Below are positions 41,601 through 41,799 of a DNA stretch of 64,000 nucleotides, piece by piece (position 1 is the stretch's first letter; each line of letters begins with the position of its first letter). Source of the stretch: a virus (taxonomy: Duplodnaviria; Caudoviricetes); the IMG/VR virus record IMGVR_UViG_3300025450_001231; one strand, written 5' to 3'. Both the position numbers and the translations under genes were made by a program. The notes below the pieces were generated by a model. It did not search any database, had not been told where the DNA came from, and was given only the letters and a program-made list of their open reading frames with translations.

Positions 41601-41753
41601 ATGAAGATAACATTGAAACCGATCGCCGCTCCACGTAACCCCTTCGTGAAGCTGGCACTATTTAAGAAAGCGGGTAGTCATACGAAAAGCAATAAAGCAA
41701 TTCGTAGACAAGAAAACAGCAAAAGGATCGTAGCTCAGTTGGTAGAGCAGTAG
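41601..41753 (+). CDS. small basic protein (50 aa) whose last codons and stop overlap tRNA-Lys
   Basis: AGGAAAA RBS; MKITLKPIAAPRNPFVKLALFKKAGSHTKSNKAIRRQENSK|RIVAQLVEQ. Confidence 0.65.
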   Translation: MKITLKPIAAPRNPFVKLALFKKAGSHTKSNKAIRRQENSKRIVAQLVEQ

Positions 41754-41799
41754 ACTTTTAATCTATTGGTCCCGAGTTCGAATCTCGGCGGTCCTACCA
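41724..41799 (+). tRNA. tRNA-Lys(TTT)
   Basis: Loop CTTTTAA, CCA. Confidence 0.95.

What the first reader, a model, noticed from the sequence alone, without database searches (positions are those of the whole stretch)
41601..41799. Small basic ORF whose stop codon lies inside tRNA-Lys: RNase P would create a non-stop mRNA
Seen: the 50-codon ORF runs into tRNA-Lys; codon 42 begins exactly at tRNA nucleotide 1 (41724) and the TAG (41751-53) lies about 30 nt inside the tRNA. The first 41 aa are K/R/H-rich (PRNPF...FKKAGSHTKSNKAIRR). Established: E. coli ArfA and B. subtilis BrfA are small basic ribosome-rescue factors made from RNase III-truncated non-stop mRNAs and are destroyed when tmRNA is active. 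Inference: a phage ribosome-rescue or ribosome-binding factor whose stability is coupled to tRNA processing and trans-translation.
Basis: partly seen in the sequence, partly recalled or inferred. Interest (0 to 1): 0.72.

Follow-up and report, generated by a model that had tools for sequence, protein, structure and literature searches.

The report
Stop-less phage peptide gene abutting tRNA-Lys
A real, widely conserved gene for a 41-residue basic peptide runs straight into a tRNA-Lys gene without a stop codon, so tRNA processing should leave its mRNA stop-less, the hallmark of bacterial back-up ribosome-rescue factors, here in a new family and on a phage.

Summary
ORF 41601-41753 (50 codons, AGGA Shine-Dalgarno) enters tRNA-Lys(UUU) exactly at codon 42, and its TAG lies 27 nt inside the tRNA.

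The ORF is a real gene. It belongs to an unnamed family with no Pfam, NCBIfam or PHROG match: 142 cluster representatives and 242 unique loci. The core is MK..K...PRNP(F/L)V..A..(K/R)KAG.H.KS.KA.RR.

The family has three gene architectures:
- In phage tRNA arrays, 49 of 52 members have no stop before a tRNA (51 of 52 tRNA-Lys(UUU)), in all three frames.
- In 17 betaproteobacterial contigs, the ORF runs into a conserved 23-bp hairpin with compensatory changes, as in E. coli arfA.
- In about 16% of sampled Burkholderiales, it is an ordinary stand-alone gene with its own stop.

Two independent devices that cut off the stop codon point to ArfA/BrfA-like control by trans-translation. A ribosome-rescue role is therefore the best guess.

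There is no detectable sequence or profile similarity to ArfA, BrfA or ArfB. Only an ArfA/ArfT-like basic KK.G motif is shared. The function is inferred, not shown.

Verdict: a new small-protein family with a new RNase P-based variant of a known regulatory principle. Interest is high.

The parts
41509..41583 (+). tRNA-Ile(GAU). Its 3' processing would set the 5' end of the small mRNA.
   Evidence: ARAGORN; Rfam 64.7 bits. In 27 of 52 tRNA-linked relatives, a same-strand tRNA ends within 60 nt of the start codon.
41584..41600 (+). 17-nt leader with Shine-Dalgarno AGGA (41590-41593), 7 nt before the ATG.
   Evidence: Sequence. Most relatives have AGGA, GGAG or AAGGAG at the same distance.
41601..41723 (+). 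Codons 1-41: the conserved basic peptide (MKITLKPIAAPRNPFVKLALFKKAGSHTKSNKAIRRQENSK). This is the predicted product if the mRNA ends at the RNase P site.
   Evidence: family core with R12, G25, K32, R35 invariant and N13, V16, A19, A24, H27, K29, A33 at 90% or more. Third-position variation. AlphaFold2 gives two short helices and no globular fold (pLDDT 78, pTM 0.30).
41724..41799 (+). tRNA-Lys(UUU) with encoded CCA. Its nucleotide 1 is the RNase P cleavage site and the first base of codon 42.
   Evidence: ARAGORN; Rfam RF00005 74.1 bits, E 2.4e-15. 51 of 52 tRNA-adjacent relatives are followed by tRNA-Lys(UUU).
41724..41753 (+). Read-through codons 42-50 (RIVAQLVEQ) plus TAG, all inside the tRNA. 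They can be translated only from unprocessed precursor.
   Evidence: In relatives the tails are tRNA sequence read in all three frames (20/18/14). The first stop lies 7 to 198 nt past the tRNA start, and 14 ORFs read through the whole tRNA.

Best explanation
Shown:
- The ORF is a genuine gene of a new, widespread family of 40-56-residue basic peptides. The family occurs on Betaproteobacteria chromosomes and in phage tRNA arrays.
- In the window the gene sits between tRNA-Ile and tRNA-Lys and has no stop codon of its own.

Inferred from established tRNA biology:
- RNase P cuts every tRNA precursor at nucleotide 1. Here that would release a ~140-nt mRNA ending exactly after codon 41.
- A ribosome reaching that end stalls with an empty A site.
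- If tmRNA-SmpB is available, the 41-mer is tagged and degraded.
- If trans-translation is saturated, as expected late in infection when mRNA is being destroyed, the peptide is released untagged and accumulates.
- This is the control logic of E. coli ArfA (RNase III hairpin) and B. subtilis BrfA (terminator inside the ORF).

Inferred by analogy, least certain:
- The peptide acts on the ribosome as a back-up rescue factor for stop-less complexes.
- Its (K/R)KAG.H.KS.KA.RR tail would lie in the empty mRNA channel, and its invariant RNP(F/L)V segment would contact a release factor.

Confidence by step:
- Real gene of a new family: about 0.97.
- Stop-less mRNA is the main expressed form: about 0.75.
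- Rescue-factor function: about 0.45.
For: 1. Real gene: homologues at E 1.4e-18; 142 representatives; 242 unique loci; Shine-Dalgarno sites; codon-position pattern; conserved across loci of 36-62% GC.

2. Stop-less design is conserved.
- 49 of 52 tRNA-adjacent members have no stop before the tRNA.
- The distance from the RN codon to tRNA nucleotide 1 is mostly 84-99 nt, in all three frames (20/18/14), so the tail is not under selection.
- Stops are depleted in the short spacer: 2 of 51 in frame against 25 of 102 off frame, p=0.0013.
- The cultured cyanophage BUCT-ZZ01 has the same layout, with codon 43 starting at tRNA-Lys nucleotide 1.

3. A second, independent truncation device exists in the same family.
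- 17 betaproteobacterial loci carry a 23-bp hairpin inside the ORF, just after the core.
- 8 of its pairs show compensatory changes.
- In 16 of the 17 loci the first in-frame stop lies beyond the hairpin, from just past its 3' arm to about 250 nt further on; in L080, where the reading frame is disrupted, it falls inside the 3' arm.
- This is the arfA architecture.

4. Motif-level likeness: ArfA has KGKGS and ArfT has KKGGSTNKK in the channel-binding tail (PMC6299226). This family has (K/R)KAG.H.KS.K.

5. ArfA (PF03889) was not found in 5 of 5 genomes that carry the family. It was found in only 3 of 301 sampled Burkholderiales, none of which is among the 48 that carry the family.
Against: - No sequence, Pfam, profile-profile or PDB-profile similarity to ArfA, BrfA, ArfB or SmpB.
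- Most family members (174 of 242) are stand-alone genes with a normal stop, and one sub-group examined has no conserved hairpin. Stop-less expression is therefore not a family-wide requirement, although ArfT also has a normal stop.
- 4 of 5 host genomes examined also carry an ArfB-like gene, so there is no clear gap to fill.
- The near-exclusive pairing with tRNA-Lys(UUU) is not predicted by the rescue model.
- Two members (L097, L237) end with a stop codon 0-1 nt before the tRNA. One lineage (L009-L011) keeps the ORF although the tRNA has decayed.
- A first ribosome could translate into the tRNA before RNase P acts and make the 50-mer.
- There are no expression data.
Confidence: 0.5

Rival explanations
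1. The peptide is real, but the overlap with the tRNA is incidental. The protein is made from unprocessed precursor using whatever stop lies in or after the tRNA. It serves another role: a lineage-specific ribosome-associated or RNA-binding small protein, or a partner of tRNA-Lys(UUU), for example protecting it from or countering an anticodon nuclease.
For: - The partner is tRNA-Lys(UUU) in 51 of 52 cases, while upstream tRNAs vary widely. That suggests a functional tie to this tRNA.
- Stand-alone chromosomal members with ordinary stops dominate the family.
- L009-L011 keep the ORF and end at the TAG inside a decayed tRNA.
- There is no homology to any rescue factor.
Against: - It does not explain why stops are avoided in the spacer.
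- It does not explain why all three frames and tail lengths of 2-66 residues are tolerated.
- It does not explain why a sister sub-family independently places a conserved long hairpin inside the ORF.
- RNase P cleavage at tRNA nucleotide 1 is universal and would separate the ORF from any stop inside the tRNA.
Confidence: 0.3
2. The ORF is a lysine-codon-rich leader peptide. Ribosome stalling on it senses Lys-tRNA supply and tunes maturation or stability of the downstream tRNA-Lys precursor. The peptide itself has no function.
For: - 8 of the 41 codons are Lys.
- The ORF is strictly linked to tRNA-Lys(UUU).
- Translation into the tRNA would unfold the acceptor and D arms.
Against: - Non-lysine residues are invariant or nearly so (R, N, V, A, G, H).
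- Third codon positions vary while the residues are kept.
- Homologues without any tRNA are conserved on bacterial chromosomes and in phages ACP17 and V45v66.
Confidence: 0.07
3. The stop-less transcript is the active agent. The phage makes many stop-less mRNAs to tie up tmRNA-SmpB, so that phage proteins escape tagging. The peptide is a by-product.
For: The stop-less architecture is conserved. The gene lies in a tRNA array that has four perfect sigma-70 consensus promoters within about 5.5 kb, so transcription may be strong.
Against: The amino-acid sequence is under strong purifying selection, and the stand-alone homologues have stops. A decoy would not need a conserved peptide.
Confidence: 0.05
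4. The ORF is a chance open frame in a tRNA spacer and is not expressed.
For: Short ORFs abound in the region.
Against: - Hundreds of homologues.
- Shine-Dalgarno sites in relatives.
- Codon-position pattern.
- hhalign probability of 97.9% to an annotated phage protein.
Confidence: 0.01

Closest known systems
ArfA (E. coli YhdL; Pfam PF03889), alternative ribosome-rescue factor A
   Same: - Small and basic, with an active form of about 40-55 residues.
- A KK.G-type basic motif in the second half.
- A hydrophobic (D/N)P(L)F-type segment before that motif.
- The gene lacks a usable stop because an RNA-processing element sits inside or at the end of the ORF. The hairpin-type members of this family copy the arfA layout closely.
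   Different: - No detectable sequence or profile similarity.
- In the window the truncating element is a tRNA gene (RNase P), not an RNase III hairpin or a terminator.
- Most family members have normal stops.
- The window's copy is phage-borne.
- RF2 recruitment is untested.
ArfT (Francisella tularensis, 40 aa; PMC6299226)
   Same: - Size of about 40 aa.
- The KKGGSTNKK motif resembles KKAGSHTKSNKA of the window peptide.
- ArfT is an independent family recognised only by function.
- It has a normal stop codon, like the stand-alone betaproteobacterial members.
   Different: No ArfT sequence was available to align. ArfT is known only from Francisella and is not made from a stop-less mRNA.
BrfA (B. 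subtilis YqkK; PMC6881298)
   Same: A small RF2-dependent rescue factor made from a stop-less mRNA and repressed by trans-translation.
   Different: - Truncation is by an intrinsic terminator inside the ORF.
- A search of all PDB chain sequences, with the single protein and with the family profile, returned no rescue factor, BrfA included.
- It is a Firmicute protein.
tRNA-mRNA co-transcripts processed by RNase P and RNase E (for example the E. coli tyrT-tpr and thrU-tufB operons; own knowledge)
   Same: An mRNA shares a precursor with tRNAs, and its ends are set by tRNA-processing enzymes.
   Different: In those operons the coding region lies downstream of the tRNAs and has its own stop. Here the ORF lies directly upstream of the tRNA and depends on it for its 3' end.

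Membership tests
ArfA (PF03889) | Match to the Pfam ArfA model, or profile-profile similarity to ArfA sequences | tested here: not met
   - No Pfam hit at E<=10 for the window peptide, 3 phage and 3 bacterial members, or the 71 members of A2.
- E. coli ArfA as positive control scores 89.5 bits.
- hhalign of A2 or A4 against ArfA or the ArfA alignment A7 gives probability 0.07-0.12%.
ArfA (PF03889) | Conserved KGKGS motif in the mRNA-channel tail | tested here: inconclusive
   The family has an invariant (K/R)KAG.H followed by K(S/T/P).KA.R(R/K). This is similar in charge and in the glycine, but it is not the same motif.
ArfA/BrfA-type regulation | ORF lacks a usable stop because an RNA-processing or termination element lies inside or at the end of it | tested here: met
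   Tested at the level of gene architecture only. The tRNA starts at codon 42 in the window. 49 of 52 tRNA-linked relatives have no stop before the tRNA. 17 loci have a conserved hairpin inside the ORF, with covariation. Actual cleavage and tmRNA tagging were not measured.
ArfA/BrfA/ArfT (RF-dependent rescue factors) | Binds stop-less 70S ribosomes and activates RF2 (or RF1) to hydrolyse peptidyl-tRNA | not testable with these tools
   Needs biochemistry or genetics.
ArfB (YaeJ) / class I release factor domain (PF00472) | GGQ catalytic motif and RF-1 domain | tested here: not met
   The 41/50-aa sequence has no GGQ and no Pfam hit.
BrfA | Sequence similarity to BrfA chains in solved ribosome complexes | tested here: not met
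   phmmer and a profile hmmsearch against all PDB chains at E<=10 found no rescue factor.
tRNA (RF00005), for the downstream partner | Cloverleaf with anticodon UUU, above the Rfam gathering score | tested here: met
   74.1 bits against a gathering score of 29. ARAGORN calls tRNA-Lys(ttt). Acceptor stem checked by eye.
DUF7230 (PF23876), viral small basic proteins | Match to the Pfam model | tested here: not met
   The ESM Atlas names it only as the nearest named neighbour, with scores 0.81-0.86. No Pfam hit for any member. Not found in 5 phage records that carry the family.

The most novel reading that the evidence does not exclude
The ORF and tRNA-Lys(UUU) form a two-part phage counter-defence module. 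The phage supplies its own tRNA-Lys, the species that host anticodon nucleases such as PrrC or PARIS AriB destroy. From the same precursor it makes a peptide that frees ribosomes left stranded on broken messages. Peptide output would be licensed by RNase P processing of that very tRNA and by exhaustion of tmRNA. This would be the first virus-encoded ribosome-rescue factor and the first mRNA whose stop-less 3' end is made by RNase P.
Probability: 0.12. Interest if true: 0.92.

Novelty: new variant of a known kind. Interest (0 to 1): 0.8.

Why it matters
Only four back-up rescue factors are known (ArfA, ArfB, ArfT, BrfA). Each was found by genetics in a single lineage, because such tiny proteins escape homology searches.

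This finding shows that gene architecture, an ORF that runs into a processed RNA, can flag candidates. It yields a family present in roughly one in six sampled Burkholderiales and in many uncultured phages.

If the peptide is a rescue factor, three things follow:
- A large group of bacteria gains a previously unseen rescue pathway, which bears on trans-translation inhibitors as antibiotics.
- Phages are shown to manipulate ribosome rescue.
- RNase P joins RNase III and terminators as a maker of regulatory stop-less mRNAs.

Even if the function differs, a conserved protein gene whose 3' end is defined by a tRNA gene is an annotation blind spot. The ACP17 copy is unannotated, and gene callers report fused tRNA-translated tails.

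A cultured system exists for testing: phage BUCT-ZZ01 on Synechococcus elongatus PCC 7942.

Tried and rejected
- Complex prediction of the Polaromonas family member (alignment A4) with its own RF2 (alignment A5) gave no verdict: score 0.01 against a mark of 0.32, and controls were not run. It counts neither for nor against binding.
- megablast and blastn of the region against cultured phages found nothing useful.
- PHROGs, Pfam and NCBIfam found no family for any member.
- PDB sequence and profile searches gave only a chance 20-residue match to transcarboxylase 5S.
- hhalign against ArfA was negative.
It was replaced by an IUPAC pattern scan, which fixes R, N, V, A, (K/R)KAG and H. Invariance of those residues in that set is therefore partly by construction. 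The unbiased phmmer set shows the same residues nearly invariant.
- The DUF7230 lead from the ESM Atlas, together with a weak ArfA hit, was not confirmed.
- A crude sliding-window hairpin scan of the stand-alone high-GC genes was uninformative, because every 90-nt window folds strongly. A proper alignment of 11 Hylemonella-type loci shows no conserved hairpin across the stop, only a convergent downstream gene.
- Phyletic complementarity with ArfA is weak evidence, because ArfA is rare in the order anyway (3 of 301). ArfB-like genes co-occur with the family.
- The AlphaFold2 model (two short helices, pTM 0.30) is too small for a fold search.
- An RNA ligase was looked for next to the kinase and phosphoesterase pair and not found.
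- One genome (G343, locus L307) is unpublished.

Full report
**1. The observation**

The window carries 23 ARAGORN-called tRNA genes, all on the + strand, between 38.3 and 43.9 kb. A 24th is split by an intron.

ORF 41601-41753 (50 codons, ATG) is listed. tRNA-Lys(UUU) occupies 41724-41799 and has the highest Rfam tRNA score in the array, 74.1 bits. Codon 42 starts at tRNA nucleotide 1, and the TAG is at 41751-41753, 27 nt inside the tRNA. AGGA lies 7 nt before the ATG. tRNA-Ile ends 17 nt before the ATG. Every statement in the finding about the sequence is correct.

**2. It is a real gene of a large unnamed family**

- A word-indexed search found 10 relatives, the best at E 1.4e-18.
- An exhaustive phmmer search found 142 cluster representatives at E<=1e-3.
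- The shared core is about 38 residues: MK..K...P-RNP(F/L)V-..A..-(K/R)KAG.H.K(S/T/P).KA.R(R/K).EK.
- Pfam, NCBIfam and PHROGs have no model for it. All named database copies are "hypothetical protein".
- Among 51 tRNA-linked members, third codon positions differ far more than first and second positions (0.59 against 0.31 and 0.22). The loci span 36-62% GC.
- Nearly all have a Shine-Dalgarno sequence.
- AlphaFold2 predicts two short helices and no globular fold.

**3. The tails of the called proteins are translated tRNA**

After the core and 3-8 variable residues, the database proteins continue with strings such as VAQLAEHSAFTR.V.SS.L..PT, SSMVEQDAFNVKVQSS or VAQGQSMGLLIPRRPFDP. These are a tRNA gene read in each of the three frames.

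I scanned viral, genome and metagenome collections with a back-translated pattern. I then analysed 242 unique family loci confirmed by hmmsearch.

- 52 loci have a same-strand tRNA starting 84-128 nt after the RN codon. 51 of these are tRNA-Lys(UUU).
- Of the 52, the first in-frame stop is inside the tRNA in 32, beyond it in 14, and not reached before the contig end in 3. It lies before the tRNA in only 3.
- The frame of entry into the tRNA is 0, 1 or 2 in 20, 18 and 14 cases.
- In the short spacer between the core and the tRNA, an in-frame stop occurs in 2 of 51 loci, against 25 of 102 in the other two frames (Fisher p=0.0013).
- Upstream neighbours vary: tRNA-Gln, Thr, Ile, Asp, Ala, Phe, Met, Val, Gly, His, Arg and Glu.
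- Among unique viral contigs, 12 of 13 are linked to tRNA-Lys, including one decayed copy.
- The cultured cyanophage BUCT-ZZ01 has the same layout. Its annotated 48-aa protein UTS52149.1 matches the family profile at 97.9% probability, and its codon 43 starts at tRNA-Lys nucleotide 1.

The opposite holds.

**4. A second truncation device in the same family**

A betaproteobacterial sub-family has the core MKPKIKPRNPFVALAKFRKAGSHEKP.KSLRRQEKQ.LAKTAKQSPESWHK...SAM.. Its tail looks conserved, but the conserved stretches are the two arms of a long hairpin read as protein.

An alignment of 17 loci gives a 23-bp stem that begins about 113 nt after the RN codon. Eight of its pairs keep pairing through changes on both sides. 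The first stop lies beyond the hairpin in 16 of the 17, from just past its 3' arm to about 250 nt further on; in L080, whose reading frame is disrupted, it falls inside the 3' arm. No U-tract follows, so the hairpin looks like an RNase III substrate rather than a terminator.

This is the architecture of E. coli arfA, whose mRNA is cut by RNase III inside the ORF (established; reviewed in PMC8012679 and PMC3989581).

Some low-GC members (L173, L256) have a hairpin and then a tRNA-Thr.

**5. The commonest form is an ordinary chromosomal gene**

174 of the 242 loci have no nearby tRNA. Most are 50-56-aa genes of Ralstonia, Polaromonas, Hylemonella, Thiobacillus, Ramlibacter, Collimonas, Zoogloea and relatives. 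They have their own stop and an extra basic, helix-like C-terminal stretch.

- In Thiobacillus the gene sits between what look, from their translated sequences, like an rsxE-type gene and the endonuclease III gene nth; neither was checked against a family library.
- A six-frame profile search found the family in 48 of 301 sampled Burkholderiales.
- An alignment of 11 Hylemonella-type loci shows no conserved hairpin across the stop.
- Phages ACP17 (copy unannotated) and V45v66 also carry versions with their own stop.

**6. How it most likely works**

Every bacterial tRNA precursor is cut at nucleotide 1 by RNase P (established). In the window this would free a ~140-nt RNA (41584-41723) holding a Shine-Dalgarno site, an ATG and 41 sense codons, and ending ...AGC AAA-3'. 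A ribosome reaching that end has an empty A site and no stop.

Such complexes are substrates of tmRNA-SmpB, which tags the peptide for proteolysis. When tmRNA-SmpB is limiting, they are substrates of release-factor-dependent rescue (established for ArfA and BrfA). The peptide should therefore accumulate only when trans-translation is saturated.

One peptide family has acquired two unrelated ways of losing its stop codon, a tRNA and a long hairpin. That is hard to explain unless stop-less expression is selected in those lineages. The only proteins known to be regulated this way are back-up rescue factors.

The peptide also has the general build of ArfA and ArfT. It is about 40 residues long and very basic. 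It has a KK.G motif, compared with ArfA KGKGS and ArfT KKGGSTNKK. This motif is preceded by a conserved NP(F/L)V hydrophobic segment, whereas ArfA uses DPLF, with F25 inserting into RF2.

I therefore rank [quoted passage not shown] first. The function step is inference.

**7. What argues against it**

- There is no detectable homology to ArfA, BrfA, ArfB or SmpB.
- Most members have normal stops.
- ArfB-like genes co-occur in 4 of 5 host genomes examined.
- ArfA is absent from the 5 genomes tested and from all 48 positive genomes. But it is rare in the order anyway, at 3 of 301, so complementarity is weak evidence.
- The strict pairing with tRNA-Lys(UUU) is unexplained. It may be a frozen accident, kept because the ORF depends on the abutting tRNA for its 3' end. 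Or it may reflect a functional tie to the tRNA that host anticodon nucleases target (own knowledge: PrrC, PARIS).
- L097 and L237 carry a stop that ends 0-1 nt before the tRNA. L009-L011 keep the ORF beside a decayed tRNA-Lys and end at the TAG inside the remnant. So a tailed product is at least tolerated.

**8. Context**

- The phage is a 39% GC myovirus, distantly related to the jumbo phages PA5oct, Atu_ph07 and Phosso (tail sheath 45-48% identity). Its host is unknown.
- The tRNA array contains four perfect sigma-70 consensus promoters.
- No tmRNA gene was called in the window. Of the array-flanking ORFs scanned against Pfam, none is a release factor or an RNA ligase; the window was not searched specifically for SmpB.

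**9. Novelty**

Full-text searches found no report of a phage-encoded rescue factor, of this family, or of an RNase P-generated stop-less mRNA.

I class the finding as a new variant of a known kind. The regulatory principle is that of ArfA and BrfA. The protein family, the RNase P/tRNA device and the phage setting are new.

Confidence:
- Real gene of a new family: about 0.97.
- Stop-less mRNA as the main expressed form: about 0.75.
- Rescue function: about 0.45.

Noticed in passing
window 42143-42429 (+): A 24th tRNA that the default ARAGORN run missed: tRNA-Leu(UAA) interrupted in the anticodon loop by a 200-nt group I intron (Rfam RF00028, 58.9 bits). This is the arrangement typical of cyanobacteria and plastids. 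An intact second tRNA-Leu(UAA) lies at 42775-42866.
   Followed up: partly
window 37356-37384, 38439-38467, 39049-39077, 42875-42903 (+): Four perfect 12/12 sigma-70 consensus promoters (TTGACA-17-TATAAT) in and before the tRNA array. A terminator-like hairpin lies at 40531-40557, between tRNA-Cys and tRNA-Asp.
   Followed up: no
window 45692-46168 and 46375-46959 (+): An AAA_33 kinase-like gene and a calcineurin-type metallophosphoesterase lie 1.8 kb downstream of the tRNA array, after a glycosyltransferase-like and a UDP-galactopyranose mutase gene. They might form an RNA-end healing pair. No RNA ligase was found in the next 8 kb, which encodes sugar-nucleotide enzymes.
   Followed up: partly
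window 39585-39854, 41033-41410, 43270-43731 (+): Protein genes embedded in the tRNA array: a parvulin-type peptidyl-prolyl isomerase (89 aa), a DUF7448 protein (phrog_2650) and an HNH endonuclease.
   Followed up: no
L152 3706-4082 (-) and L190 69-428 (+): In two metagenome contigs, the hairpin-type family member lies 2-3 kb downstream of a tmRNA gene on the same strand. In L190 a PIN/MazE-type pair and a Fic/Doc gene lie between them. This could be an island at ssrA or a functional neighbourhood. Seven other hairpin-type loci of the same sub-family scanned alongside them showed no tmRNA gene within the DNA held (up to 8 kb each).
   Followed up: partly
L009-L011 about 1585-1660: In one viral lineage, the tRNA-Lys after the ORF has lost its T arm and 3' acceptor strand, and its anticodon is altered. 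The ORF is intact and ends at the TAG inside the remnant.
   Followed up: partly
L001 (Acidovorax phage ACP17, NC_041997.1 about 151739-151894): The family member of this cultured phage is not annotated. It lies between gp244 and gp245, overlaps the start of gp245 and has its own stop. The Variovorax phage V45v66 record has no annotation at all.
   Followed up: partly
P0152 (E. coli ArfA) and ESM Atlas neighbours: E. coli ArfA gives a weak hit to Pfam DUF7230 (E 0.11). The ESM Atlas names viral DUF7230-containing clusters as the nearest named neighbours of this family (scores 0.81-0.86). DUF7230 may be another phage family of small basic ArfA-like peptides, but no member of the present family matches it.
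   Followed up: partly
L044 about 1626-1668; L173 and L256: Other family members have different elements after the core. L044 has a strong terminator-like hairpin whose 3' arm contains the stop codon. L173 and L256 (RNYLVKLALF sub-family) have an AT-rich long hairpin followed by tRNA-Thr.
   Followed up: no
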